Of a stretch of 39,861 nt of DNA, positions 1-39,861 are shown piece after piece; positions within the stretch are counted from its first letter, which is position 1, and every line of letters starts with the position of its first letter. The notes under the pieces were generated by a model, which did not search any database, was not told where the DNA came from, and saw nothing but the letters and a program-made list of their open reading frames with translations. Both the position numbers and the translations under genes were made by a program. The DNA is taken from the NCBI GenBank assembly GCA_964515885.1, contig CAZEZZ010000001.1, positions 1-39,861 of the forward strand, in the 5' to 3' direction. Origin of the DNA: an uncultured Candidatus Saccharibacteria bacterium. Its GTDB lineage: Bacteria > Patescibacteriota > Minisyncoccia > Minisyncoccales > RBG-13-42-11.

Positions 1-181
1 AGACGTTCTGGACTTTGAAAAACAAGTATCTAATTTTTTAGACCAACTAGAGCAATCACTACCAGAGAGTGAGGTTATAGATGATGATTATAGTATAGGC
101 AGAGTTTTAAGCGTATTAGGCATAAATTCGTTAAATTTTGCAGAAAAGATAATCATAGTTAAAAAAGGAGCAGGGAAATGA
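1..181 (+). CDS. hypothetical protein, 3' part of an ORF entering from the left edge
   Basis: Frame 2 is open from nt 2 to TGA 179-181. The stop overlaps the next ATG (ATGA). It joins in frame with the ORF begun at 39800 if the window ends are joined. Confidence 0.5.
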   Translation, partial: DVLDFEKQVSNFLDQLEQSLPESEVIDDDYSIGRVLSVLGINSLNFAEKIIIVKKGAGK

Positions 182-372
182 TTAAGAGATTTATGTGTTA
201 TATACTAGGGCATAGGTGGGAAGCTGCCGTTTCTTATACAGAAGAAGCCAAAAGAAAAAAAATTAAAGCTCTTGAGGATATGCTAATATTTGGGACAGGT
301 GAGTATAAAACCGAAAGTAATGATATTAAAAAAATAGAAATTAAATGTACTCGCTGTGGTAAAACTAAATGA
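178..372 (+). CDS. small Cys/His miniprotein (C-x3-GH-x-W near N-terminus, CxxC at C-terminus)
   Basis: AGGAG sits 8 nt upstream of the ATG. 64 aa, MCYILGHRW...CTRCGK. From memory it resembles DUF1660-type small phage proteins (unverified). Confidence 0.55.
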   Translation: MIKRFMCYILGHRWEAAVSYTEEAKRKKIKALEDMLIFGTGEYKTESNDIKKIEIKCTRCGKTK

Positions 373-473
373 AACTAGCCTACATAGTATTAGTAGTTAT
401 ATTTGCTATTATTGCCAGTCCTTTTATAGTAGGCTGGTGTGTTATAGACGCATTGATAGAGAGGTATAGATGA
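369..473 (+). CDS. 34-aa hydrophobic peptide (one predicted TM helix)
   Basis: Below the ORF-track cutoff. ATG 369 overlaps the preceding stop (ATGA) and its TGA overlaps ATG 470. Sequence: MKLAYIVLVVIFAIIASPFIVGWCVIDALIERYR. Confidence 0.4.
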   Translation: MKLAYIVLVVIFAIIASPFIVGWCVIDALIERYR

Positions 474-703
474 TAATTCCATGTGAGTTATGCGGTAAGC
501 AATCAGAACAACGCCATCATCTATTTAGCCAGACAAAATGGGCTAGAAAGTTGTATGGTAAGCTCTTGGATAGACCAGAGAATATAATGTACCTATGTTC
601 GACGTGCCATTTACAGAAAGCCATACCTAAACTAAGCGAGAGAGAGTTCTGTCAAAAACTTGGCATAGAGGTACGAAGTAAAACAGGGAGAAGTAATGGC
701 TGA
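470..703 (+). CDS. minimal HNH-like zinc-finger nuclease-type protein
   Basis: CELCGK...RHHLF...N...CSTCH gives a CxxC...HH...CxxCH arrangement typical of small HNH proteins. GAGAGG SD upstream. Confidence 0.5.
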   Translation: MIIPCELCGKQSEQRHHLFSQTKWARKLYGKLLDRPENIMYLCSTCHLQKAIPKLSEREFCQKLGIEVRSKTGRSNG

Positions 704-1037
704 ACATAAAATACAATATGCCATAGTAGAGCTATTAAGGTACTATAAGATATTAGTAGTGGAAACTGATATAATGAGTGGGCTTAGGTATTTCGGCAGT
801 AAAGACCCTAGAAGGTTTGCTTTTATAAATCACCATAAGAAGATGGGTTATGTTAAAGGACAGCCTGATTTAATATTGATACTTAAAAATGAAACTGTCT
901 ATGTAGAAGTCAAAGACAAGGGTAAGCAATCACCAGAGCAGATAGACTTCCAGAAAGAAGTAGAGTCCAGAGGACAAAGGTATTTAGTATGGGATAGTTT
1001 TGAACAAGCCGAGAAGTTTTGCAAGGAGGAAGTATGA
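696..1037 (+). CDS. VRR-NUC domain PD-(D/E)XK nuclease
   Basis: GQPDLILIL...VYVEVKDKGKQSPEQIDFQ carries the D...E-x-K core plus the S-x-x-Q segment characteristic of VRR-NUC. The start overlaps the upstream gene end. Confidence 0.8.
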   Translation: MAEHKIQYAIVELLRYYKILVVETDIMSGLRYFGSKDPRRFAFINHHKKMGYVKGQPDLILILKNETVYVEVKDKGKQSPEQIDFQKEVESRGQRYLVWDSFEQAEKFCKEEV

Positions 1038-1369
1038 AAATAGACCAAGAGGCAACGGACAAGATAGCAGAATTGGAAGTTAAACAAATTGTTAACTATC
1101 TCCATGTTTCAGATGAGCCTATAGATAAGATGTGTTCAAGATGTTATAAAAACTTAAAAGGTATAGACTGTTGGTTTATAGATAATAAATATGTATGCGT
1201 TGAGTGTAGTGGGTATAACCAAATCAAGGGCTACTGCAAGGATTGTAAGCTTAACCAGATATGTTGTAAAGATAATGGTTGTGGCTACTGTTCAGAGTTT
1301 GAGCCAAAGGAGGGGTTAGTTGAAGATACACAAGAAGCAACACAGATATACAGACGGCGTATGGTGTAA
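1034..1369 (+). CDS. Cys-rich hypothetical protein (multiple CxxC pairs)
   Basis: ATG 1034 follows AAGGAGGAAGT and overlaps the VRR-NUC stop (ATGA). The track start at 1019 lacks an SD. Motifs: CSRC...CVEC...CKDC...CGYC. Confidence 0.6.
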   Translation: MKIDQEATDKIAELEVKQIVNYLHVSDEPIDKMCSRCYKNLKGIDCWFIDNKYVCVECSGYNQIKGYCKDCKLNQICCKDNGCGYCSEFEPKEGLVEDTQEATQIYRRRMV

Positions 1370-1541
1370 GTGTAAAAAACCAATACTTGTAACATACAGA
1401 TGGGAGAAGGTTACATGCCCTAAGTGCATGAGTCATATCCCTGGGAGGCAACAGCTTAATCTATATATAAAACGTAGGTATGGAAAATCTTATAAAAAAG
1501 CACTAGAAAAAAACAAAAAACCTGCTACCATTATATTATGA
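1320..1541 (+). CDS. zinc-ribbon miniprotein (TTG start)
   Basis: TTG 1320 lies 4 nt after AAGGAGGGG. CKCKK...CPKC, with a basic C-terminus. It overlaps the previous ORF by 50 nt, so the start is uncertain. Confidence 0.45.
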   Translation: MKIHKKQHRYTDGVWCKCKKPILVTYRWEKVTCPKCMSHIPGRQQLNLYIKRRYGKSYKKALEKNKKPATIIL

Positions 1542-1735
1542 GACTTAAAAAATGCCAGAATTGCAAACATGCTATGAAAGAAGATGAGACAACGATACTG
1601 TTCGTGAACGGTGATAAATCTTACTTCTGCTGTGACATCTTTGGAATAATAGAAGATGGGGCAGAGTGCTTTGAAGTCAAGAGAAAAAAGATAACCGAAC
1701 AGTTTTATACTAAAACCATGATGGAGGCAAATTGA
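1538..1735 (+). CDS. Cys-rich hypothetical protein
   Basis: ATGA overlap with the upstream stop. CQNC...CC...C pattern; 65 aa. Confidence 0.55.
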   Translation: MRLKKCQNCKHAMKEDETTILFVNGDKSYFCCDIFGIIEDGAECFEVKRKKITEQFYTKTMMEAN

Positions 1736-2085
1736 AAGACTATAGCTTATTAGAACTAGAACAGATGCTATACAATCTATGCCATCACTGTGAGAAAGCC
1801 GATGGTGAGTTCATCAAAGCTGAGAATGATTTCGAGTTACTAAACGATGTTAAGAGTATCGTCTTTGAACAGCTAGTAGAGAAACAACCAGAGGGTAAGA
1901 CCAACCTAAGAGAGCATAACGCTAGGCTTAGTGACGAGTGGATTGAATGGATTAAAACCTTCGGAGTGATACGATACGAAAAGAAAAAAGCAGGACTTAA
2001 AAGAGATAAGTACCGCAGAGAATATACAACTTGCCAGATGATTCTATCAACTAGAAAAGCTGAACTAAAAACTTTATTGACATAA
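1732..2085 (+). CDS. hypothetical protein
   Basis: TTG start in a TTGA overlap, 5 nt after TGGAGG. 117 aa, helical and charged. No motif recognised. Confidence 0.55.
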   Translation: MKDYSLLELEQMLYNLCHHCEKADGEFIKAENDFELLNDVKSIVFEQLVEKQPEGKTNLREHNARLSDEWIEWIKTFGVIRYEKKKAGLKRDKYRREYTTCQMILSTRKAELKTLLT

Positions 2086-2104
2086 CTTAATATATGCTTA
2101 TCAT
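2077..2104 (+). promoter_or_regulatory. sigma70-like promoter candidate (TTGACA-16-TATCAT)
   Basis: Perfect -35 at 2077-2082, 5/6 -10 at 2099-2104, 16-nt spacer. It sits just upstream of the HTH gene and would give a very short leader. Confidence 0.35.
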
Positions 2105-2120
2105 ATAGATAGGGGTGTCT

Positions 2121-2315
2121 ATGAAAGAACCACGACTTCTTAGAATGGTAGAGGTATGTGCTCTCACTAGGTCATCAAAACCAGTCATTAAAATGATTAT
2201 CCACAGCGGAGAGATTAAAGCTACAAAGACTTGGTTCGGTGCTAAGTGCCGATATTATATTCCTGAATCTGAAATAGAAAAAATAAAAGAAATAAAAAAG
2301 CGGGATAGTTTTTAA
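2121..2315 (+). CDS. small helix-turn-helix DNA-binding protein (MerR/excisionase-like HTH)
   Basis: LLRMVEVCALTRSSKPVIKMIIHSGEIKA...YYIPESEIEKI matches the short HTH_17/excisionase-type pattern. ATG 2121 follows AGGGG; GTG 2115 is an alternative start. Confidence 0.55.
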   Translation: MKEPRLLRMVEVCALTRSSKPVIKMIIHSGEIKATKTWFGAKCRYYIPESEIEKIKEIKKRDSF

Positions 2316-2325
2316 GCTACCCCGC
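2300..2325. terminator. hairpin at the convergence point of the two arms (bidirectional terminator candidate)
   Basis: GCGGGATAG...CTACCCCGC forms a 9-bp stem with one mismatch and a TTTTTAAG loop. It overlaps the stop of the last plus-arm gene. An A-run lies 5' of the stem but there is no U-tract 3' on the plus strand. Confidence 0.5.
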
Positions 2326-2345
2326 CTCATAATCTTATGCAAATA

Positions 2346-3161
2346 CTATGTAAGTGTTACTGCATGTCCATTAAAGAATTCTGTCGCTGTGGCATCAAAA
2401 TCACCTGCTCCACCACCTGTGGCTGCTGACCTTGAATTGTCTTCTGTGTAATAAGTATTACCCATAAAGTTGTGTAGCTGTCCTGCTCCGCCACCAGTCG
2501 TCTGAGCCTGGCTTTGATAGTGACAATGTGACATGTTGAATACAAACGCTTTAGTAGCTGTACCAAATGCGAAAGCATCTCTACATTCCATACCAAAGAT
2601 GTTCAAGTAAGAATCTGCATTATCAAGAGTAAAAGTTGTCGCTCCATCAATGTAATGCAAGAAAGGATTACCAGCGATTGTAATGTAAAGTTCTTCTGAA
2701 ACGTCTGTGTTATCTATATCAATAGATACTCCACTGACTGAAAAGAATGAACAGTTCTGAAAGTCAATGTTCATAGCTTCTGCCAATCCACCATCATTGT
2801 CGATTTCAACAGCGTCGCCTGTGCTAGTATTATAAAACTTTATGTTTCTAGCTTTATAAAACTGAGTAGTTGCTGTGCCTGTTGCTGGCATGTTTATCAG
2901 TACTGTAGATGTTGCAAGAGCTGATGCTATGATAACATCCTCTGCTGCGCCCATACCCATTAGTGTTAGGGGTTTTGACCAGTCAATCTGTGTAGTAACA
3001 GTGTAAGTTCCTGGCTCGAAATAAATAACATCGTCAACTTGAGCTGCATCTAGTGCGCTCTGTACATCGTCGAACATAAAGGTTGAGTTGTCTTTACCTA
3101 CGACTGTGATTTTTGAGCCTTTAAGTCCTGACCCAAATTTGTAACCTGAATAAGTAGTCAT
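2346..3161 (-). CDS. right-handed beta-helix (pectate-lyase-fold-like) tailspike/depolymerase candidate
   Basis: AAGGAGG SD. The N-terminus FDDVQSALDAAQVDDVIYFEPGTYTV...LTLMGMG is the typical cap of pectin-lyase-fold proteins and is followed by repetitive beta-rich sequence. Last gene of the late arm. Confidence 0.55.
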   Translation of the reverse strand: MTTYSGYKFGSGLKGSKITVVGKDNSTFMFDDVQSALDAAQVDDVIYFEPGTYTVTTQIDWSKPLTLMGMGAAEDVIIASALATSTVLINMPATGTATTQFYKARNIKFYNTSTGDAVEIDNDGGLAEAMNIDFQNCSFFSVSGVSIDIDNTDVSEELYITIAGNPFLHYIDGATTFTLDNADSYLNIFGMECRDAFAFGTATKAFVFNMSHCHYQSQAQTTGGGAGQLHNFMGNTYYTEDNSRSAATGGGAGDFDATATEFFNGHAVTLT

Positions 3162-33111: not shown

Positions 33112-33819
33112 ATGATTACAGAAAAGATTTTAAACTATTTCCAAAATGTAGAGAAAAAACGTGAGTGGAGCAATAACGTCTTTAGAGCTTCAAGTTCTGG
33201 TAAATGCGCCAGGGCTTTAGCTTATCAGCGACTAGAATATGAAGCTGAGCCTTTGAGTGCCAGAGCAAGAATGGTTTTTAGAATGGGTGATTTAGTAGAG
33301 CAAGATATGGTCAACGCTTGTGAAGCCGTAGAATGTCTTACGGACATGCAAAAAGAAGCTAATTTTATACTACCTAATGGTCAAGAAGTTACGGGGCATA
33401 TTGACGGGATTACAGAATTTAACGGTGAAAAAATTGTCGTTGATTTTAAATCTATTTCTATGTTCGGATTCATGCGTGCAGAAAAAGGCGAATTGGATTA
33501 TTCATACAAATGTCAAGCCACCTGTTACATGAAAGCATTAGACTTAAAGAAGTTCCTATTCTTATTCTATAACAAGAACACAAGCCATGTTACAGAGATA
33601 CTATACCAATGGGATGAAAAGATATTAAACGAAGTTGTGGACAGATTTACACGAGTGGGGCAAGCTACTAAAGAAAATCTACCAAACAAGGATTATGGAC
33701 CAAACGCAAAAGGAGATTTGCCGTACCAATGTTCTTACTGTGCTTATGCTAATGTATGTCAAACAGACTATGAGCTTATATTTGAGAAGGGCAAGCCTAA
33801 ACTAAGGAGGAGAAAGTAA
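33112..33819 (+). CDS. Cas4/RecB-like PD-(D/E)XK exonuclease with Fe-S cluster cysteines
   Basis: One N-terminal Cys (SSSGKCARALAY), GHIDGI, VVDFKS (D-x-K) and QATCY (Q-x3-Y), plus a C-terminal C-x2-C-x5-C (CSYCAYANVC). This is the Cas4-type pattern. Confidence 0.8.
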   Translation: MITEKILNYFQNVEKKREWSNNVFRASSSGKCARALAYQRLEYEAEPLSARARMVFRMGDLVEQDMVNACEAVECLTDMQKEANFILPNGQEVTGHIDGITEFNGEKIVVDFKSISMFGFMRAEKGELDYSYKCQATCYMKALDLKKFLFLFYNKNTSHVTEILYQWDEKILNEVVDRFTRVGQATKENLPNKDYGPNAKGDLPYQCSYCAYANVCQTDYELIFEKGKPKLRRRK

Positions 33820-34130
33820 TGCAATTACTAATTGAACAGTTAGACAAGAGAGAATTTGACGGAAAATTTGGGAAGTATTGGAAGGTTGGTATCTATGCCA
33901 ATGGTAAGTGGTACGGTACACCAGAAAAGGACTGGAATAGGGGTTGGGAAGTAGGTAATACCATTGACGTAGAAGTTGAGCAGGTTACGGGCAAAAATGG
34001 TAAAACATACAATAATATTCTACCACCTGGGAAGTCAAGCGGTGGTTCGGGTCAGGATAGTTTATTATTGGAACGTATTGCCACCATATTGGAACGAATT
34101 GAGTTAATCCTTAGTAAGAGAGGTTCTTAA
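33819..34130 (+). CDS. hypothetical protein (possible small OB-fold/ssDNA-binding partner of the nuclease; guess)
   Basis: AGGAGGAG SD. The ATG shares one base with the nuclease stop codon (TAATG). 103 aa, with a G/S-rich linker and a helical tail. Confidence 0.5.
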   Translation: MQLLIEQLDKREFDGKFGKYWKVGIYANGKWYGTPEKDWNRGWEVGNTIDVEVEQVTGKNGKTYNNILPPGKSSGGSGQDSLLLERIATILERIELILSKRGS

Positions 34131-34304
34131 ATGAAAGTTGAAGGAAACGGCAATTCTGTGCAAACTGAGGGATTTTGCAAGTATTGTAAAAAATGGTGTA
34201 CTTTAGTGTTTTCTACAAATTATGATGATGTTAAGATTTGTGAGGATTGTCAGCAGATGGAAATTAACCAGTACGAAGAAACTTTAGAAAGAGGAGGCAA
34301 ATAA
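34131..34304 (+). CDS. 57-aa zinc-ribbon miniprotein
   Basis: Below the ORF-track cutoff. The ATG follows the upstream TAA directly. MKVEGNGNSVQTEGFCKYCKK...CEDCQQ. Confidence 0.45.
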   Translation: MKVEGNGNSVQTEGFCKYCKKWCTLVFSTNYDDVKICEDCQQMEINQYEETLERGGK

Positions 34305-34468
34305 TGTATATAGCAACAATAAATGCAGATGAAAAATTAGTGATTAAGTTTAAAAAGTATCTGAAAAAGAATGGGAAAGTGTTTAGCTTTGAACTAAAGA
34401 GAGTTTTAGATGAAGCCATAAAACTTGAAATTGATAGGTACGAAGAAGGAGAAAGCGAAAAGAAATAG
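34304..34468 (+). CDS. 54-aa protein (ribbon-helix-helix-like guess)
   Basis: Below the ORF-track cutoff. GAGGAGG SD and TAATG overlap. MYIATINADEKLVIKFKKYLKKNGKVFSFELKRVLDEAIK... Confidence 0.4.
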   Translation: MYIATINADEKLVIKFKKYLKKNGKVFSFELKRVLDEAIKLEIDRYEEGESEKK

Positions 34469-34469
34469 A

Positions 34470-34497
34470 TTGACAGATTGTATTTTTGTAGTAAGGT
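34470..34497 (+). promoter_or_regulatory. promoter candidate (TTGACA-16-TAAGGT)
   Basis: Perfect -35, weak -10 (3/6). Upstream of the uORF/hairpin leader of the replication gene. Confidence 0.3.
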
Positions 34498-34526
34498 TTA
34501 ATTATTGGCAAAGGGGAGATTAAAAT

Positions 34527-34640
34527 ATGTTTTATTTAGGTTATATCGGCGGTGGGAATTCAACTCTCCGTGCCAAACATCGCCGTATAATAGCAGGGTT
34601 GGGGTTATGTCCCAGCCCTGTTTATATTTGGAGGGCTTAA
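34527..34640 (+). CDS. 37-codon upstream ORF / leader peptide candidate
   Basis: GGGGAG sits 8 nt upstream of the ATG. MFYLGYIGGGNSTLRAKHRRIIAGLGLCPSPVYIWRA. Its TAA overlaps the ATG of the replication gene (TAATG), and it reads through two GC-rich hairpins. Confidence 0.3.
   Translation: MFYLGYIGGGNSTLRAKHRRIIAGLGLCPSPVYIWRA
34594..34629 (+). terminator. terminator/attenuator-like hairpin
   Basis: CAGGGTTGGG-(7 nt)-CCCAGCCCTG forms a 10-bp stem with one G-U pair, followed by TTTATATTT, then GGAGGG and ATG 34640. Confidence 0.45.
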
Positions 34641-35299
34641 TGAAAAGGGATAGTTTTATTTTCTATAGAAGTTTTTATGAAGCGATAGTTTTAATGCCCC
34701 CAGAAGAGCAGGTAAAGGTCTATCACGCAATAGCAACATACTGTTTAAACCATAAAGAGACCGAGCTCGATGGCATGGCAAAGATGGTTTTTACTCTTGT
34801 TAAACCTCAACTAGATGCGAACTACAAGAGATTTGAGAACGGTTGTAAAGGTGGTAAGCCTAAGCAGGTTGTAACCAAACCCGAACCAAAAGCTAACCAA
34901 ACCGTAACCAAAAGCAAAGCTAATCTTAATCTTAATGTAAATGTAAATGAATATAAAGAGAATACATTGTCTGGTAAATTGAACCAGACGGCTACTGCAA
35001 GGCAAGTAATTGACCATTTAAACAAAACTGCGAACAGGGCTTACAGACATTCAAAGACATCCCTTGAACCAATCGTAGCAAGATTAAAGGATATGGCTTT
35101 AGACCCATGTGGCTTGGACAAGTACCCAGATATTAACCCTTACCAGTGGTGTGAATTTGTAATTAACCGTAAGGTTGCCAAGTGGGGTAAAGACCCAAAA
35201 ATGAGTGAGTTCTTGCGTCCTGAGACATTATTTAGACGTTCTAACTTTGAGAGTTACCTTGGCGAAGTATTAACAAGTATTAAGAAATCGGAGGAATAG
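34640..35299 (+). CDS. phage replication protein (replisome-organiser type; conserved phage C-terminal domain)
   Basis: The N-terminus DSFIFYRSFYEAI...EEQVKVYHAIATYCLN is DUF6291-like. The C-terminus VIDHLNKTANRAYRHS...IVARLKD...VINRKVAKWGKDPKMSEFLRPETLFRRSNFESYL is typical of the Phg_2220_C/TIGR02220 domain. ATG 34640 follows GGAGGG. Confidence 0.7.
   Translation: MKRDSFIFYRSFYEAIVLMPPEEQVKVYHAIATYCLNHKETELDGMAKMVFTLVKPQLDANYKRFENGCKGGKPKQVVTKPEPKANQTVTKSKANLNLNVNVNEYKENTLSGKLNQTATARQVIDHLNKTANRAYRHSKTSLEPIVARLKDMALDPCGLDKYPDINPYQWCEFVINRKVAKWGKDPKMSEFLRPETLFRRSNFESYLGEVLTSIKKSEE
34871..34914. repeat. four AACCAAA motifs at exact 11-bp phasing (22-nt unit x2)
   Basis: gTAACCAAAcc cgAACCAAAag cTAACCAAAcc gTAACCAAAag, inside the linker region of the replication gene. 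Confidence 0.8.
34922..34951. repeat. AT-rich hexamer tract (AATCTT x2, AATGTA x2, AATGAA)
   Basis: Five tandem 6-nt units directly 3' of the phased AACCAAA motifs. It encodes NLNLNVNVNE. Confidence 0.8.
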
Positions 35300-35300
35300 T

Positions 35301-35948
35301 ATGCCAAGTCCATACCCAAATAACCCACACAAAATACTAGAGGGGTATCCTATTACAAAACCTTTTCAAAGTATTACTGAAGTTAATGATTATTTCAATA
35401 ACGATAGAATAGTTTGTTTATTATGTGGAAAACAATATAAAAGTATCACTGCTGGGCATTTAATGATGGTTCATAATATAACAGTAGATGAATATAAAGA
35501 AATGTATGCTATTCCTAATGGACGAGGACTGTCTTGTATAACTACAAAAGAAAAACACTCAAACCACGCTTGGAAAATGGTAGATAAAGGCAAGTTTGTC
35601 TTAAATAAAAAGGGTTGTGATATGTCTGAGTTCTCATCTAAACCAAAACGCAAATGCCCTCAAAAAAGTAGTGTTGCTAGAAATAATCTAAATGAACATA
35701 TGAAACCTAAAAGGGATTTAGTAAGACTCAATGGCAAACTTGTTACATTTACAGAGTCAAGAAAAATAAAAAGATTAAAAAAAGGAACACCAGAATATCA
35801 AGAAATGCTGTTAGCAAGACCACAATGCCAGCCAGATATAGTCAGAAGAAATATGGGGTCTTACTGGAAGGGAAGGAAAAGGTCTGAAGAAACAACACGA
35901 AAAAGGCTAGAAACTTTAAAAAAAATTAAAGCAAGCAAGGAGGAATAA
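35301..35948 (+). CDS. Ros/MucR-like zinc-finger DNA-binding protein with a basic C-terminal extension
   Basis: IVCLLCGKQYKSITAGHLMMVHNITVDEYKEMYAIPNGRGL parallels the Ros/MucR C-x2-C-x9-H-x4-H finger followed by (T/S)..EYR.K(W/Y).(L/I)P. CGGAGGA SD. Confidence 0.65.
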   Translation: MPSPYPNNPHKILEGYPITKPFQSITEVNDYFNNDRIVCLLCGKQYKSITAGHLMMVHNITVDEYKEMYAIPNGRGLSCITTKEKHSNHAWKMVDKGKFVLNKKGCDMSEFSSKPKRKCPQKSSVARNNLNEHMKPKRDLVRLNGKLVTFTESRKIKRLKKGTPEYQEMLLARPQCQPDIVRRNMGSYWKGRKRSEETTRKRLETLKKIKASKEE

Positions 35949-36983: not shown

Positions 36984-37144
36984 TGGATAGAACTATAGTA
37001 ACGATGGGAGCATTGATACTTGTTCTTATACTCTTGGTTTTTGGTACAGGACTAGAAAAGGAAGAACTAAGTAAGGAACTGAAGGCATACAAAACGATGG
37101 TTAAGAGAAGTTGTAACTGTCACCCTTATAGGAGTACAAAATGA
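36983..37144 (+). CDS. 53-aa single-TM membrane peptide
   Basis: Below the ORF-track cutoff. GGAGGGA SD, TAATG and ATGA overlaps. MDRTIVTMGALILVLILLVFGTGLEKEE... Confidence 0.45.
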   Translation: MDRTIVTMGALILVLILLVFGTGLEKEELSKELKAYKTMVKRSCNCHPYRSTK

Positions 37145-37965
37145 AAAAATACAAAGTATTAAACAAAGACAAGACTAGCCCATTTAAAAACTTCAAGTAT
37201 ATGTTAGGTAAAGAACACCATGTTCCAGAGATTGATATGTGTAAAGACAATGACTGTTCTTACGGACTGTATGCCACCGATTTAGAGGGCATATTGTATT
37301 CCAACCTATCCGATGGTAAGCAAGTTTACGAGTGTGAGGTGAGGGGTAAAGAGGTTGTTATAGACCAGTTTAAACAGAGATTTGAATACTTAAAATTGAT
37401 TAGAAAAGTCCCACTAAAAGAACTAGAACCAATGCTTAAAAAAGAAAGCAAGAAGCTGGGTTATGATTTATATAGAGCATTGATACCAGTTAATCCCTTA
37501 GCTTCCAAGCCGAATAAGCCTACTAAAAAAGATATAGCAAACCTTAAAAAATGGTACTCTGTGAGGGAATCTGTGAGGGAATCTGTGGGGGAATCTGTGA
37601 GGGAATCTGTGGGGGACTCTGTGGGGTACTCTGTGGGGGAATCTGTGTGGGACTCTGTGGGGGAATCTGTGTGGGACTCTGTGTGGAACTCTGTGTGGAA
37701 CTCTGTGAGGTACTCTGTGAGGTACTCTGTGAGGGACTCTGTGTGGGACTCTGTGGGGGCGTATGTTTCCAGCCTGTTTCCTAACATTAAGGACTGGAAG
37801 TATATAGACCACAAGAAAGGCATAAACCCTTTTCAGTCATGTATAGATTTATGGCACAGAGGCTTTGTACCAAGTTTTGACGGTGAGATTTGGAGGTTAC
37901 ATTCTGGTAAGAAAGCAGAGATAGTATTTGAAATACACAAAGACAAATTAAGGGAGGTAAAATGA
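37141..37965 (+). CDS. tetrapeptide-repeat (x-S-V-x, 17 copies) protein with unique N- and C-terminal domains
   Basis: 274 aa. The repeats lie in frame between aa 139 and 206. The N-terminal domain (KVLNKDKTSPF.NFKY..GKEH...C..GLYAT...YECEVRG) resembles DUF7666-type phage proteins from memory (unverified). Confidence 0.75.
   Translation: MKKYKVLNKDKTSPFKNFKYMLGKEHHVPEIDMCKDNDCSYGLYATDLEGILYSNLSDGKQVYECEVRGKEVVIDQFKQRFEYLKLIRKVPLKELEPMLKKESKKLGYDLYRALIPVNPLASKPNKPTKKDIANLKKWYSVRESVRESVGESVRESVGDSVGYSVGESVWDSVGESVWDSVWNSVWNSVRYSVRYSVRDSVWDSVGAYVSSLFPNIKDWKYIDHKKGINPFQSCIDLWHRGFVPSFDGEIWRLHSGKKAEIVFEIHKDKLREVK
37555..37758 (+). repeat. 17 tandem 12-nt units NNN-TCT-GTG-NGG
   Basis: Read directly from the sequence. 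TCT GTG is invariant in all units. Variation is limited to codon 1 (GAA/GAC/TAC/AAC) and the first base of codon 4 (A/G/T-GG). Confidence 0.95.
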
Positions 37966-38141
37966 AGTTAGAAAATATGGATATTGATTTAGGGAAAGGC
38001 TACATACAGGACATAACTCTATGTGCACAAGAACTGTTTATGTTTTATAAATCAGGTAATTTAAAGGCTACACAAGAATATATGTTCTATATTAAAGAGG
38101 CTATGGATAAGTTAAATAAGTTAATAGGAGGCGAGAAATGA
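37962..38141 (+). CDS. 59-aa hypothetical protein
   Basis: Below the ORF-track cutoff. GGGAGG SD and ATGA overlaps at both ends. MKLENMDIDLGKGYIQDITLCAQELFMFYKSGNLKATQEYMFYIKEAMDKLNKLIGGEK. Confidence 0.45.
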   Translation: MKLENMDIDLGKGYIQDITLCAQELFMFYKSGNLKATQEYMFYIKEAMDKLNKLIGGEK

Positions 38142-38476
38142 AAAAGTTAAAAGCTAAGGTAATGGAGATGATGGAGAACGCAAAGGACGATAACAATGAC
38201 CACAAGGCTGGTTATTACGAGGCTATCCTGGAACACGTTGTAACAGAGCTAGGCTACCTGACAGACAAGACAGATACAAGAATTGAAGAACTTGAGGGGT
38301 GTCTGGAGGACTTTGTAGAGGACGACAAGGGTGTCCAGACTGTCCTGCTTGCTGGTGATAACTATGACCGTTGCGATAGATGCAGGGGGGTTTATTACAA
38401 GGAACAGTTAAGGGGTAAGAAGTTTGTAGATGGTGATGATTATGAAGTCAGGCTTTATTGTGAGCACTGCGAATAA
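38138..38476 (+). CDS. acidic hypothetical protein with a C-terminal CxxC...CxxC
   Basis: AGGAGGCGAGAA SD. 112 aa, D/E-rich. CDRCRG...CEHCE. Confidence 0.6.
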   Translation: MKKLKAKVMEMMENAKDDNNDHKAGYYEAILEHVVTELGYLTDKTDTRIEELEGCLEDFVEDDKGVQTVLLAGDNYDRCDRCRGVYYKEQLRGKKFVDGDDYEVRLYCEHCE

Positions 38477-38486
38477 AGGAGGTATT

Positions 38487-39218
38487 ATGATATTAGATAA
38501 AAATTACAAAGGGCTAGAATTTAAAGACGGTTGTTATTACTATGACGGCAACATTGAAACAACAGAAAATTTAGAGATTAAGCTAGATGATTGGTTAGAA
38601 GTAACAGGGTCTATCAAGTCTGGTGGGTCTATCGAGGCTGGTGAGTCTATCAAGGCTGGTTGGTATATCGAGGCTGGTGAGTATATCATAGCTGGTGGGT
38701 CTATCGAGGCTGGTGGGTCTATCATAGCTGGTGGGTCTATCGAGGCTGGTTGGTATATCGAGGCTGGTGAGTCTATCAAGGCTGGTTGGTATATCAAGGC
38801 TGGTTGGTATATCGAGGCTGGTGAGTATATCGAGGCTGGTGAGTATATCAAGGCTGGTGGATATATCAAGGCTGGTGGGTCTATCGAGGCTGGTGGGTCT
38901 ATCATAGCTGGTTGGTATATCGAGGCTGGTGGGTCTATCATAGCTGGTGGGTCTTATGGAATATCAGCAGCTCTATACATAACAGCCAAAGATACTATAT
39001 CTTGTGGTCTTAAAATCTTTGCAGGTATCTGTACTTGGAGAAATACAGAAGACAGTGACAAGACTATTACCTGTTCAAAGCTATTAAGCGGAACTGTTGA
39101 GTATGGATTATTAAAGGAAACAGGAGAAGCTAAAAAGAAGATAACAATAGATGGCAAAGAAATAGAAATAAGTCTTGAGAGTTTTGAAGCTTTGAAAAGA
39201 AGTTTGAAGGAGGAGTGA
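38487..39218 (+). CDS. hexapeptide-repeat protein (19 x [G/E/W][S/Y]I[E/K/I]AG), beta-helix candidate
   Basis: ATG 38487 follows AAAGGAGG; the track start at 38430 overlaps the upstream gene. A regular I-x-A-G-x-x period resembles left-handed beta-helix or bactofilin-like repeats. Confidence 0.75.
   Translation: MILDKNYKGLEFKDGCYYYDGNIETTENLEIKLDDWLEVTGSIKSGGSIEAGESIKAGWYIEAGEYIIAGGSIEAGGSIIAGGSIEAGWYIEAGESIKAGWYIKAGWYIEAGEYIEAGEYIKAGGYIKAGGSIEAGGSIIAGWYIEAGGSIIAGGSYGISAALYITAKDTISCGLKIFAGICTWRNTEDSDKTITCSKLLSGTVEYGLLKETGEAKKKITIDGKEIEISLESFEALKRSLKEE
38607..38948 (+). repeat. 19 tandem 18-nt units NNN-T(C/A)T-ATC-NNN-GCT-GGT
   Basis: Read directly from the sequence. ATC, GCT and GGT are invariant in 18 of 19 units (unit 1 has TCT in place of GCT). 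Codon 1 is GGG/GAG/TGG/GGA, codon 2 TCT/TAT, codon 4 GAG/AAG/ATA. Confidence 0.95.
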
Positions 39219-39809
39219 GTGAAAAAGTACCAGATAATATATGCTGACCCTCCTTGGAGTTACAACGATAAAAATTGTAATGGGGCGTGTGAGCCTCAAT
39301 ACAAAACTTTAAGTATTAGCGACTTGTGTGATTTATCTGTTAAAGATTTAGCTGACAAAGATTGTATGCTATTTTTATGGGCTACATACCCGATGTTACC
39401 CCAGGCTTTAAAATTAATTGAGGCCTGGGGCTTTACTTATAAAAGTATAGGCTTTCAGTGGATAAAACTTAATAAGAAAAATGGTAAGCCCTTTTACGGT
39501 TTAGGTAGATGGACAAGGGGTAATAGCGAGCCATGCTTAATAGCTGTTAAAGGAAAACCCAAAAGAGTTTCCAAAGCCGTATTTCAACTAATAATGACCC
39601 CAATAGAGGGTCACTCTAAAAAACCAGACATAGTTAGAAAAAGAATAGTAGAGCTTGTGGGTGACCTACCAAGAATAGAATTGTTTGCCAGGGGAGACAA
39701 GAGCAAGGACTTGCTTGGTGATAATAGATTTGATGGTTGGGACACTTGGGGAAACGAAGTTGAGAGTGATATTGAATTACAATCCAATAAGGAGGAGCCA
39801 TGTACTTAG
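39219..39809 (+). CDS. MT-A70-family N6-adenine DNA methyltransferase (orphan)
   Basis: IIYADPPWSY (DPPW catalytic motif) near the N-terminus. About 196 aa, typical of small phage MT-A70 enzymes. GTG start after GGAGGAGTGA. No adjacent restriction endonuclease. Confidence 0.85.
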   Translation: MKKYQIIYADPPWSYNDKNCNGACEPQYKTLSISDLCDLSVKDLADKDCMLFLWATYPMLPQALKLIEAWGFTYKSIGFQWIKLNKKNGKPFYGLGRWTRGNSEPCLIAVKGKPKRVSKAVFQLIMTPIEGHSKKPDIVRKRIVELVGDLPRIELFARGDKSKDLLGDNRFDGWDTWGNEVESDIELQSNKEEPCT

Positions 39810-39861
39810 ACAAAGTAAGCAAGGAGGGTACAGATTGTCAGCCAGAACAAACTATTAATAT
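39800..39861 (+). CDS. hypothetical protein, 5' part (ORF runs off the right edge)
   Basis: ATG 39800 follows AAGGAGGAGCC and overlaps the methyltransferase end. There are 20 codons plus 2 nt before the window ends. Confidence 0.5.
   Translation, partial: MYLDKVSKEGTDCQPEQTIN

What the first reader, a model, noticed from the sequence alone, without database searches (positions are those of the whole stretch)
38487..39218. Second early protein built from 19 near-identical 18-nt repeats (hexapeptide [G/E/W][S/Y]I[E/K/I]AG): acidic beta-helix candidate
The segment 38607-38948 is NNN-T(C/A)T-ATC-NNN-GCT-GGT repeated 19 times, with ATC/GCT/GGT essentially invariant. Differences between variant codons are single bases (GGG/GAG/TGG; TCT/TAT; GAG/AAG). 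An I-x-A-G-x-x period is what left-handed beta-helix (hexapeptide) and bactofilin-like proteins use, so a long regular solenoid is plausible. Glu outnumbers Lys in the array, which would put regularly spaced negative charge along a rod. That geometry is reminiscent of DNA-mimic pentapeptide-repeat proteins (Qnr/MfpA), although this is only an analogy. The variable first codon toggles among TGG/GGG/GAG, much like the NGG codon of the tetrapeptide array 700 bp upstream. This may indicate a shared mutational or selection regime.
Basis: partly seen in the sequence, partly recalled or inferred. Interest (0 to 1): 0.7.

Follow-up and report, generated by a model that had tools for sequence, protein, structure and literature searches.

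The report
Phage hexapeptide-repeat beta-solenoid protein
A real phage gene encodes a small rod-shaped protein built from 19 near-identical six-residue rungs; it belongs to a widespread, phage-restricted family with no known function, whose repeat number and exposed residues vary while the core stays fixed.

Summary
Window 38487-39218 (+) is a 243-aa ORF with a strong RBS. Positions 38607-38948 hold 19 in-frame 18-nt units encoding x-[S/Y]-I-[E/K/I]-A-G.

AlphaFold2 gives a capped beta-solenoid (pLDDT 96). It is not a LbH acyltransferase: there is no Hexapep hit, no His, and TM to LbH enzymes is at most 0.35. It is not a bactofilin by HMM. The nearest family is the FapA/DUF342 solenoid, just below threshold (29.9 vs 31 bits; 31 of 51 relatives hit it).

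The protein belongs to an uncharacterised family: more than 355 proteins, 136 viral contigs, and only 27 loci in 185,579 cellular genomes. Members carry 4-34 units and have no conserved gene neighbour. A related phage lacks the gene altogether.

Codon analysis shows concerted evolution. The I/A/G codons are uniform within a gene but differ between genes. Diversity within an array sits at four nucleotides that change the three exposed residues, so heterogeneity appears to be selected.

Acidity is not conserved (E 44%, K 40% at the face position), so DNA mimicry is weakly supported.

The array is identical in an independent sample, so it is not hypermutable on short time scales.

Function is unknown. 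The best guess is a non-enzymatic binding or scaffold protein of the host-takeover/anti-defence accessory set.

The parts
38476..38483 (+). Ribosome-binding site AAGGAGGT, 3 nt before the ATG
   Evidence: Read directly. The upstream gene stops at TAA 38474-38476.
38487..39218 (+). CDS of the 243-aa hexapeptide-repeat beta-solenoid protein (stop TGA 39216-39218)
   Evidence: Homologues start at the same Met. AF2 pLDDT 96, pTM 0.85.
38487..38606 (+). N-terminal cap, residues 1-40 (MILDKNYKGL...LDDWLEVT), short beta strands
   Evidence: Conserved across the main subfamily: K5, Y17, G21, L37, V39, G41. Strands 10-13, 16-19, 23-25, 29-31, 36-39. Other subfamilies carry different N-caps.
38607..38948 (+). 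Array of 19 x 18 nt, residues 41-154, unit [G/E/W][S/Y]I[E/K/I]AG. One 3-4 residue strand plus a tight turn per unit.
38949..39128 (+). Conserved C-terminal cap domain, residues 155-214 (GSYGISAALYITAK...TITCSKLLSGTVEYGLLKETG)
   Evidence: Invariant G158, I159, A161, A179, G180, C196, G202, G207, L209. phmmer of residues 153-243 finds 238 cluster representatives, all but one of them small proteins of 44-254 aa.
39129..39215 (+). Variable C-terminal tail, residues 215-243 (beta-hairpin plus helix, pLDDT 71-87)
   Evidence: The tail differs between relatives, and in some it is replaced by an XRE-HTH or DUF551 domain.
39219..39809 (+). Context: MT-A70 type DNA methyltransferase. Its GTG start abuts the solenoid stop codon, with an upstream GGAGGAG.
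   Evidence: Pfam MT-A70 5.4e-25; PHROG 359 DNA methyltransferase 1.5e-80; PADLOC MTase_II 1.4e-64.
38138..38476 (+). Context: 112-aa protein with a C-terminal CxxC...CxxC zinc-ribbon-like end, immediately upstream
   Evidence: weak Zn-ribbon hits only. A relative is present in phage L120, which lacks the solenoid gene.
37141..37965 (+). Context: 274-aa tetrapeptide-repeat protein (17 x SV[R/G/W][E/D/Y/N] at 37558-37761); relatives carry DUF7666
   Evidence: Tetrapeptide-repeat genes lie just upstream of solenoid genes in L001, L008 and L042, and about 3.5 kb upstream in L015.

Best explanation
The ORF is a genuine, translated accessory gene of an uncultivated phage of about 41 kb. It sits in the replication/recombination (+ strand) module and is translationally coupled to an orphan MT-A70 DNA methyltransferase.

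Its product is a soluble beta-solenoid rod capped at both ends. Each hexapeptide contributes one short strand: I and A point into the core, G makes the turn, and positions 1, 2 and 4 are exposed. By sequence profile the solenoid is closest to the FapA/DUF342 type, not to LbH acyltransferases.

The 18-nt units are in frame, so unequal recombination or slippage adds or removes whole rungs. Relatives with 88-92% identical flanks have 19, 9 or 7 units. The same process homogenises the units (concerted evolution). Selection nevertheless keeps a mixture of residue types (G/E/W/R; S/Y/F; E/K) at the exposed positions.

Inferred, not shown: the protein is non-enzymatic and acts by surface binding. It would be a length-adjustable scaffold, inhibitor or decoy directed at a host (or phage) macromolecule during host takeover or counter-defence, rather than a DNA mimic.
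For: Gene reality and structure:
- RBS and operon arrangement.
- The array is identical in a second, independent sample.
- AF2 with a 51-sequence alignment gives pLDDT 96 in all five models, with period-6 strands and both caps. The array alone gives pLDDT 96.8.
- FapA PF03961 scores E 5.7e-7, and 31 of 51 relatives hit it. None hit Hexapep or Bactofilin.

Family:
- More than 355 proteins.
- 136 viral contigs.
- 238 cluster representatives carry the C-cap.
- Only 27 loci in 185,579 cellular genomes, mostly phage-sized MAG contigs.
- No PHROG.

Accessory nature:
- No conserved neighbour among 78 loci.
- Mosaic flanks.
- Absent from the related phage L120.
- Located beside methyltransferases or the terminase, or in the first early operon after the repressor.

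Evolution:
- I/A/G codons are uniform within a gene and differ between genes.
- Within-array heterozygosity is 0.38-0.48 at nt 1, 2, 5 and 10, against 0.08-0.11 at synonymous third positions. Those synonymous positions show 0.49-0.60 between genes.
- Pairwise codon differences are 21166 non-synonymous vs 2989 synonymous. Several arrays have zero synonymous differences.
- All 59 arrays keep both E and K at position 4.

Non-enzymatic: no His in the protein, no enzyme family hit, and no insertion loops in the array.
Against: - There is no functional evidence of any kind. Every relative is annotated 'hypothetical'.
- AF2 is known to be over-confident on idealised repeats, and only 2 of 5 single-sequence models were confident.
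- Foldseek found no solved structure with E<1e-3.
- The order of variable residues shows no lag correlation, so there is no sign of a structured binding surface or charge ladder.
- Fusions to HTH domains in a divergent subfamily could point to a regulatory role instead.
- Heterogeneity could be selected merely for solubility or folding register rather than for binding.
Confidence: 0.45

Rival explanations
1. Acidic DNA mimic. The rod displays regularly spaced carboxylates and titrates host restriction enzymes, other DNA-binding defence proteins or gyrase, as Ocr, ArdA or the pentapeptide proteins Qnr/MfpA do.
For: - This copy is acidic: 14 E vs 6 K in the array, whole-protein pI 4.68.
- It sits next to an anti-restriction-type orphan methyltransferase.
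- A pentapeptide-repeat protein lies near a homologue in L047.
Against: - Acidity is not conserved. Position 4 is E 44% / K 40%. Net charge per unit has median -0.25 and range -1.12 to +0.57, and about 25% of arrays are neutral or basic.
- R, K and W are frequent at exposed positions.
- There is no periodic charge pattern.
- Known mimics are far more acidic (established knowledge, not tested here).
Confidence: 0.1
2. Polymer-forming or pole-associated cytoskeletal-like protein (like bactofilin, the FapA solenoid or the MinC C-domain) that reorganises the host cell, for example through division or polarity, or scaffolds phage replication.
For: - The best profile match is the FapA beta-solenoid domain.
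- FapA is a polar scaffold-interacting protein (PMC6877527).
- There is a weak MinC_C hit (E 0.054 for the window protein; 0.0011 in one relative).
- JGI annotated one relative as bactofilin CcmA.
- Phage-encoded bactofilin-like proteins exist in BFVD.
Against: - The FapA score is below the gathering threshold, covers only profile positions 21-139 of 272, and the protein lacks FapA's other domains.
- There is no Bactofilin HMM hit.
- Conserved N- and C-caps are the usual device to block end-to-end polymerisation (inference).
- No bactofilin or MinC structure appears among the top Foldseek hits.
Confidence: 0.15
3. Oligomerisation or sensor module of a DNA-binding regulator. The solenoid positions a small C-terminal DNA- or protein-binding tail.
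For: - A divergent subfamily fuses the solenoid to an XRE-type HTH and sits next to a serine recombinase and other HTH genes in gut temperate phages.
- Tails are modular and variable among relatives.
Against: - The window protein's tail has no DNA-binding family hit even at E<=1.
- The HTH-fused proteins are only about 36% identical and have irregular repeats.
- Most members have only short tails.
Confidence: 0.1
4. Structural virion or fibre component whose length is set by repeat number.
For: - Beta-helices are common in tail fibres and spikes. Foldseek against BFVD returns large viral beta-helix proteins at TM 0.5-0.57.
- In several loci the gene lies close to the terminase genes.
Against: - In the window it is on the opposite strand from the structural block and sits among replication, recombination and methylase genes.
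- It is small and capped.
- It is absent from a related phage with the same module.
- It matches no PHROG structural family.
Confidence: 0.06
5. The DNA repeats, not the protein, are the functional element (for example origin iterons, as in the lambda O gene), or the array is a neutral, selfish expansion.
For: Two arrays of short direct repeats lie in the replication module. lambda-type origins do lie inside genes (established knowledge).
Against: - Across 59 arrays the amino-acid motif I-x-A-G is invariant, while the codons encoding it differ between phages (ATC/ATT/ATA, GCT/GCA/GCC, GGT/GGA/GGC/GGG). The protein, not a DNA word, is what is conserved.
- The reading frame, the caps and a strong RBS are conserved.
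- The gene occurs in unrelated phage backbones.
Confidence: 0.04
6. A left-handed beta-helix (hexapeptide) acyltransferase, as some JGI annotations of relatives (LpxD) suggest.
For: Period 6. NCBIfam LpxD weak hit at 21 bits. JGI names on three relatives. LbH enzymes top the (non-significant) Foldseek list.
Against: - No Pfam Hexapep hit even at E<=1, in the window protein or in 51 relatives.
- The LpxD score of 21 compares with a cutoff of 207.
- The motif order differs from [LIV]-[GAED]-X2-[STAV]-X.
- TMq is 0.15-0.35 and rmsd 11-14 A against many LbH enzymes, even for the array alone.
- There is no His and no active-site loop.
Confidence: 0.02

Closest known systems
FapA / DUF342 beta-solenoid domain (Pfam PF03961)
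   Same: It is the only curated family that the protein and 31 of 51 relatives match (E down to 5.7e-7). From memory, DUF342 solenoids contain I-[EK]-A-G-G-x-I corners like this unit; I did not verify that here.
   Different: The score of 29.9 is below the 31-bit threshold, and only profile positions 21-139 of 272 are covered. The protein has none of the other parts of FapA (about 60 kDa; polar; binds EIIAGlc/HubP, PMC6877527). Here the motif is idealised into every hexapeptide, the copy number is highly variable, and the family is phage-restricted.
Left-handed beta-helix hexapeptide-repeat acyltransferases (LpxA/LpxD/GlmU, PF00132)
   Same: A six-residue period and probably a three-sided solenoid. 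Automatic annotations sometimes call relatives LpxD.
   Different: No HMM hit. The order of large and small inward residues is reversed (I-x-A-G versus small-x-[LIV]-G). The model does not superimpose (TMq <=0.35). There is no catalytic His, no loops and no evidence for a trimer.
Bactofilins (PF04519) and the MinC C-terminal beta-helix
   Same: Small cytoplasmic beta-helical proteins without enzymatic activity. They act through surfaces or polymerisation.
   Different: No significant HMM or Foldseek match. This family has conserved caps at both ends and near-perfect repeats.
Pentapeptide-repeat proteins (Qnr, MfpA, AlbG; PF00805)
   Same: Idealised short-period beta-solenoids that act purely by shape and surface. 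Such proteins also occur in phage accessory regions (for example L047).
   Different: They have period 5 and a four-sided helix. Their DNA-mimic function relies on a conserved acidic surface, which this family lacks.
TAL-effector-like repeat arrays (evolutionary analogy only)
   Same: The repeats are near-identical at the DNA level and homogenised by recombination, with variation concentrated at fixed 'repeat-variable' residues. Repeat number varies between alleles.
   Different: The fold, unit length (6 vs 34 aa) and biology are unrelated. There is no evidence of a recognition code here.

Membership tests
FapA / DUF342 beta-solenoid (PF03961) | Whole-protein HMM score at or above Pfam's gathering cutoff (31 bits) | tested here: not met
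   29.9 bits, E 5.7e-7. 31 of 51 relatives match at E<=0.01, none better than the window protein. This is a borderline relationship, not curated membership.
FapA / DUF342 beta-solenoid (PF03961) | Match along the whole 272-position solenoid profile, with the accompanying FapA architecture (about 60-kDa protein) | tested here: not met
   Only profile positions 21-139 align to residues 36-161. The protein is 243 aa, with family-specific caps.
FapA / DUF342 beta-solenoid (PF03961) | Polar localisation, interaction with HubP and dephospho-EIIAGlc | not testable with these tools
   Described for Vibrio FapA (PMC6877527). This needs experiments.
LbH hexapeptide acyltransferases (PF00132) | Hexapep HMM match / motif [LIV]-[GAED]-X2-[STAV]-X | tested here: not met
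   No Hexapep hit at E<=1 or in 51 relatives. In the unit I-[E/K/I]-A-G-[G/E/W]-[S/Y], G/E/W occupies the [STAV] position.
LbH hexapeptide acyltransferases (PF00132) | Structure superimposes on a left-handed 18-residue-per-turn prism | tested here: not met
   Full model: TMq 0.16-0.27 to LpxA/LpxD/GlmU/QdtC. Array-only model: TMq 0.14-0.35, rmsd 11-13 A. The handedness of the model itself could not be read because no coordinates were available.
LbH hexapeptide acyltransferases (PF00132) | Catalytic His and substrate-binding loop insertions | tested here: not met
   The 243-aa sequence contains no His, and the array has no insertions.
Bactofilin (PF04519) | Bactofilin/DUF583 HMM match | tested here: not met
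   Absent from Pfam results at E<=1 and from 51 relatives. No bactofilin appears among the top 50 Foldseek PDB hits.
Bactofilin (PF04519) | Nucleotide-independent polymerisation into filaments | not testable with these tools
   Needs purification and EM. The conserved caps argue against it (inference).
Pentapeptide-repeat DNA mimics (PF00805) | Five-residue period A(D/N)LXX | tested here: not met
   The period is 6 aa / 18 nt. No Pentapeptide hit.
Pentapeptide-repeat DNA mimics (PF00805) | Conserved strongly acidic, DNA-like surface | tested here: not met
   Window array net -8. Across the family, charge per unit is -1.12 to +0.57 (median -0.25), with E 0.44 / K 0.40 at position 4. The 3-D charge geometry was not computable.
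Programmed hypervariable / contingency locus (DGR-like or slippage-phase-variable) | Array differs between near-identical genomes | tested here: not met
   L115 (99.6-100% identical genome, different sample) has an identical 19-unit array. L116 (97.5% identical) has identical first units and a same-length tetrapeptide array. Copy number changes appear only at about 88-92% flank identity.

The most novel reading that the evidence does not exclude
The hexapeptide solenoid, and perhaps the neighbouring tetrapeptide-repeat protein, would be a phage-encoded 'programmable' binding scaffold. Each rung displays a three-residue variable patch drawn from a binder-like alphabet (G/S/Y/W/F/R/E/K). Recombination between near-identical units shuffles rungs and changes length, generating new surfaces that neutralise rapidly evolving host immune or takeover targets. 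That would make it a viral counterpart of LRR/VLR or TALE-type modular recognition.
Probability: 0.12. Interest if true: 0.85.

Novelty: new variant of a known kind. Interest (0 to 1): 0.55.

Why it matters
This defines a sizeable protein family that is essentially phage-only and absent from PHROGs and Pfam. It combines an almost idealised beta-solenoid with rapid in-frame length change. It also shows a clear population-genetic signature: homogenised synonymous sites alongside maintained diversity at every exposed residue.

If the family proves to be a binder or inhibitor, it would add a new scaffold class to the phage counter-defence and host-takeover repertoire. It would also provide a naturally modular, length-tunable solenoid for protein engineering.

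A cultured handle exists. Ralstonia phage Eline gp16 (QMV33019.1) carries 19 xGI[E/K]AG units with a different cap.

If the family merely provides a structural spacer, it remains a neat textbook case of concerted evolution inside a phage gene.

Tried and rejected
1. Lag correlations of charge, aromatic and Gly states between units n and n+k (k = 1-8) over 59 arrays, to infer units per turn or charge ladders. Only the small negative bias expected from centring appeared, and there was no signal at any lag. DNA identity is also flat with lag.
2. Word-indexed protein search with the C-cap alone. It returned only 5 hits and was uninformative. The exhaustive phmmer search replaced it.
3. PDB sequence and profile searches. 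The only strong hit (9e5c_0q, a 'LIM zinc-binding' protein) is a compositional EATEVAEA repeat, not a homologue.
4. P0143, a 4450-aa protein matching the C-cap. It is a beta-propeller/Big_5 surface protein, and the match lies in Ig-like repeats, so I judged it spurious.
5. Megablast of the region against GenBank phages found no match. tblastn found only hypothetical proteins.
6. PADLOC gave no hit for the solenoid or its small neighbours.
7. Literature searches for hexapeptide/solenoid/phage, DUF342/bactofilin, and tandem repeat/concerted evolution found nothing on this family.
8. DGR-type mutagenesis. The variable sites are not A-specific, and the arrays are identical between samples, so I rejected it.
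9. Obligate pairing with the tetrapeptide-repeat gene. It co-occurs in 5 loci, but the related phage L120 has the tetrapeptide gene and the Zn-ribbon gene without the solenoid.
10. Handedness and coil size could not be obtained, because model coordinates are not exposed.
Full report
OBSERVATION. The window is a phage genome. A long block of structural and packaging genes lies on the minus strand (about 2.3-30.5 kb). A plus-strand block of small genes runs from about 31 kb to the window end and continues at 1-2.1 kb. The ORF at 38487-39218 (+) has an AAGGAGGT ribosome-binding site. It follows the stop codon of a 112-aa Zn-ribbon-like protein, and its own stop codon abuts the GTG start of an MT-A70 DNA methyltransferase. 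Positions 38607-38948 are exactly 19 in-frame units of 18 nt (TRF: period 18, 19.3 copies, score 430). ATC is present in 19/19 units, GCT in 18/19 and GGT in 19/19. The other codons toggle among GGG/GAG/TGG(/GGA), TCT/TAT and GAG/AAG/ATA, giving ten unit types. A contig from a different metagenome sample (L115) is 100% and 99.6% identical to the two ends of the window and joins them through 1087 bp. It carries an identical gene with the same 19 units, so the array is not an assembly artefact.

WHAT THE PROTEIN IS. AlphaFold2 with a 51-sequence alignment gives pLDDT 96 and pTM 0.85 in all five models. The model has an N-terminal cap of short strands, then one 3-4-residue strand plus a tight turn per hexapeptide, then a beta-rich C-terminal cap, and finally a hairpin and helix. 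The array alone, without an alignment, also folds confidently in the best model (96.8), although three of the five models do not. The strand is [S/Y]-I-x-A. By beta-strand alternation, I and A face the core, G makes the turn, and positions 1, 2 and 4 are exposed (this is an inference).

Curated libraries give only a sub-threshold match to the FapA/DUF342 beta-solenoid domain (E 5.7e-7; 29.9 vs 31 bits; profile positions 21-139 of 272). Of 51 relatives, 31 hit FapA and none hit Hexapep or Bactofilin. PHROGs and PADLOC give nothing. NCBIfam gives LpxD at 21 bits against a cutoff of 207.

Foldseek finds no solved structure at E<1e-3. LbH acyltransferases head the list but superimpose badly: TMq 0.16-0.27 for the full model, and 0.14-0.35 with rmsd 11-13 A for the array alone. 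The best TM (0.51) is to the right-handed HpmA beta-helix. The unit also departs from the LbH motif, and the protein has no His. It is therefore a non-enzymatic beta-solenoid nearest to the FapA type. A general caveat applies: AF2 can be over-confident on perfect repeats.

THE FAMILY.
- More than 355 database proteins match.
- 136 IMG/VR viral contigs encode a relative.
- The C-cap alone retrieves 238 representatives of 50%-identity clusters. Apart from one spurious hit, all are small proteins of 44-254 aa.
- Among 185,579 cellular species genomes only 27 loci were found. Most are on phage-sized MAG contigs binned to very different taxa, and the best are from Bdellovibrionales and Bacteriovoracaceae bins.
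- The window's terminase has only a distant relative, in a Silvanigrella phage.
- Members share the array and, in the main subfamily, the C-cap. They carry at least three kinds of N-cap and several kinds of tail. A divergent branch is fused to an XRE HTH, another to DUF551.
- Unit number ranges from 4 to 34, with a median of about 12.
- One cultured phage, Ralstonia phage Eline, encodes a member with 19 xGI[E/K]AG units, annotated as hypothetical.

CONTEXT. Clustering all ORFs of 83 loci shows no conserved neighbour; the most frequent is shared by 9 loci. The gene typically lies among small accessory genes near methyltransferases, nucleases or the terminase. In one temperate phage it lies in the first early operon after the repressor and integrase. 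Relatives with 88-92% identical coding flanks sit in different neighbourhoods. A phage from the same sample that shares the tetrapeptide-repeat gene, the 59-aa gene and the Zn-ribbon gene has a different gene in place of the solenoid. The gene is therefore a mobile, dispensable accessory gene.

EVOLUTIONARY SIGNATURE. In 59-62 non-redundant arrays, the codons for the invariant I, A and G are almost uniform within a gene but differ between genes. Examples are ATC/GCT/GGT here, ATT/GCA/GGT in L006, ATC/GCC/GGA in L005 and ATA/GCT/GGT in L066. Mean within-array heterozygosity is 0.45, 0.48, 0.38 and 0.47 at unit nucleotides 1, 2, 5 and 10. It is only 0.08-0.11 at the synonymous third positions 9, 15 and 18, and those positions show 0.49-0.60 between genes. 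Pairwise codon differences within arrays are 21166 non-synonymous versus 2989 synonymous, and several arrays have none of the latter. All 59 arrays retain both E and K at position 4, with a median K fraction of 0.5.

This is concerted evolution by unit gain, loss and conversion, with purifying selection on the core. Neutral exposed sites should be homogenised like synonymous sites, so the pattern also implies selection that maintains mixed residue types on the surface. It also shows that the protein motif, not a DNA word, is the conserved entity, which argues against an iteron or origin role. The order of variants along arrays is statistically patternless.

Turnover is not fast. Arrays are identical at 99.6% genome identity, and the sequenced part is identical at 97.5%. 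In contrast, 19, 9 and 7 units are seen at 88-92% flank identity, and 7 versus at least 19 units are seen behind an identical N-cap.

The upstream tetrapeptide array behaves the same way: TCT GTG is invariant and only nt 7, 10 and 12 vary. A relative has 13 units against 17 here. It is best described as concerted evolution plus maintained surface diversity, not as a special mutational process.

FUNCTION. Nothing is known for any member.

The DNA-mimic idea is weak. This copy is mildly acidic (net -8 in the array, pI 4.68), but the family is not: E 0.44 / K 0.40 at position 4, and net charge per unit from -1.12 to +0.57.

The acyltransferase reading is refuted.

A cytoskeletal, FapA-like or bactofilin-like role is possible. 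It is disfavoured by the conserved caps and by the lack of HMM or fold matches.

A structural role is disfavoured by gene position and dispensability.

I therefore commit, at modest confidence, to a non-enzymatic, capped, length-adjustable binding or scaffold protein, made with the replication and accessory genes and acting on a host (or phage) macromolecule during takeover or counter-defence. The grounds are the gene's accessory and mosaic distribution, its position beside an anti-restriction-type methylase, its exposed alphabet rich in W/Y/F/R/E/K/G/S, and the selected surface heterogeneity. What has been shown is the gene, the family, the predicted solenoid and the evolutionary pattern. What is inferred is exposure of positions 1, 2 and 4, monomeric capping, and all of the functional reading.

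NOVELTY AND SCORE. The fold class is known, and the nearest curated family (FapA/DUF342) is only marginally matched. The family itself is absent from Pfam and PHROGs, and I found no literature on it. I classify it as a new variant of a known kind, with interest 0.55. It is a clean, widespread and testable unknown with an unusual evolutionary signature, but there is no functional evidence and the DNA-mimic hook is weakened.

Noticed in passing
window 37141-37965 (array 37558-37761): A 274-aa protein contains 17 tetrapeptide units SV[R/G/W][E/D/Y/N] encoded by 12-nt repeats. TCT GTG is invariant and only nt 7, 10 and 12 vary. It belongs to a very large family (3893+ hits) whose relatives carry an N-terminal DUF7666. 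Close relatives differ in unit number (226-258 aa vs 274).
   Followed up: partly
L001:721-1806, L008:10-1008, L042:447-1676, L015:11-1507: Other tetrapeptide-repeat proteins ([S/N]V.. or SQL. units) lie upstream of solenoid genes in four unrelated phage loci: within a few hundred bp in L001, L008 and L042, and about 3.5 kb upstream in L015. They share a C-terminal DUF6745 domain that the window's protein lacks. The pairing is not obligatory, since phage L120 has the tetrapeptide gene without a solenoid.
   Followed up: partly
window 1-2466 and 37943-39861; L115: Metagenome contig Ga0222679_1002140 joins the window's two ends through an extra 1087 bp. The window is therefore a nearly complete genome of about 40.9 kb, either circular or circularly permuted, opened inside the plus-strand early block.
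   Followed up: partly
window 39219-39809: An orphan MT-A70-family DNA methyltransferase (PHROG 359; PADLOC MTase_II) is translationally coupled to the solenoid gene. Its GTG start abuts the solenoid's TGA stop.
   Followed up: partly
window 38540-38941 (-), 38731-38907 (+), 37461-37823 (-), 37498-37812 (-), 37551-37784 (+): Long alternative-frame and antisense ORFs run through both arrays. They are mechanical by-products of the repeats, and such frames also contaminated my ORF clustering in other loci.
   Followed up: yes
L002:487-6488: Upstream of the homologue P0002 lies a cluster of three GATase-like genes and an Amidoligase_2 gene. As I recall, this gene set is associated with phage DNA base hypermodification.
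   Followed up: no
L047:3949-4485: A bona fide pentapeptide-repeat protein (Pfam Pentapeptide 4.3e-22) is encoded about 3 kb from a solenoid homologue. Some phages therefore carry several kinds of short-period solenoid proteins in the same region.
   Followed up: no
L083:3809-4525 (Ralstonia phage Eline, QMV33019.1); also P0095, P0112, L078, L080: One subfamily replaces the N-cap with an approximately 70-aa 'ACxxGxxWF' domain (precomputed Pfam PF27195, absent from the local Pfam copy) and has a shorter, different C-cap. Eline is a cultured phage and could serve for experiments.
   Followed up: partly
window 38138-38476: A 112-aa acidic protein ends in a CxxC...CxxC zinc-ribbon-like motif and lies directly upstream. 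A shorter relative (73 aa) occupies the same position in phage L120.
   Followed up: no
window 33112-35948: The plus-strand module contains a PD-(D/E)XK nuclease, a DUF6291/Phg_2220_C protein and a Ros/MucR-type regulator. These place the solenoid gene in a replication/recombination/regulation block.
   Followed up: partly
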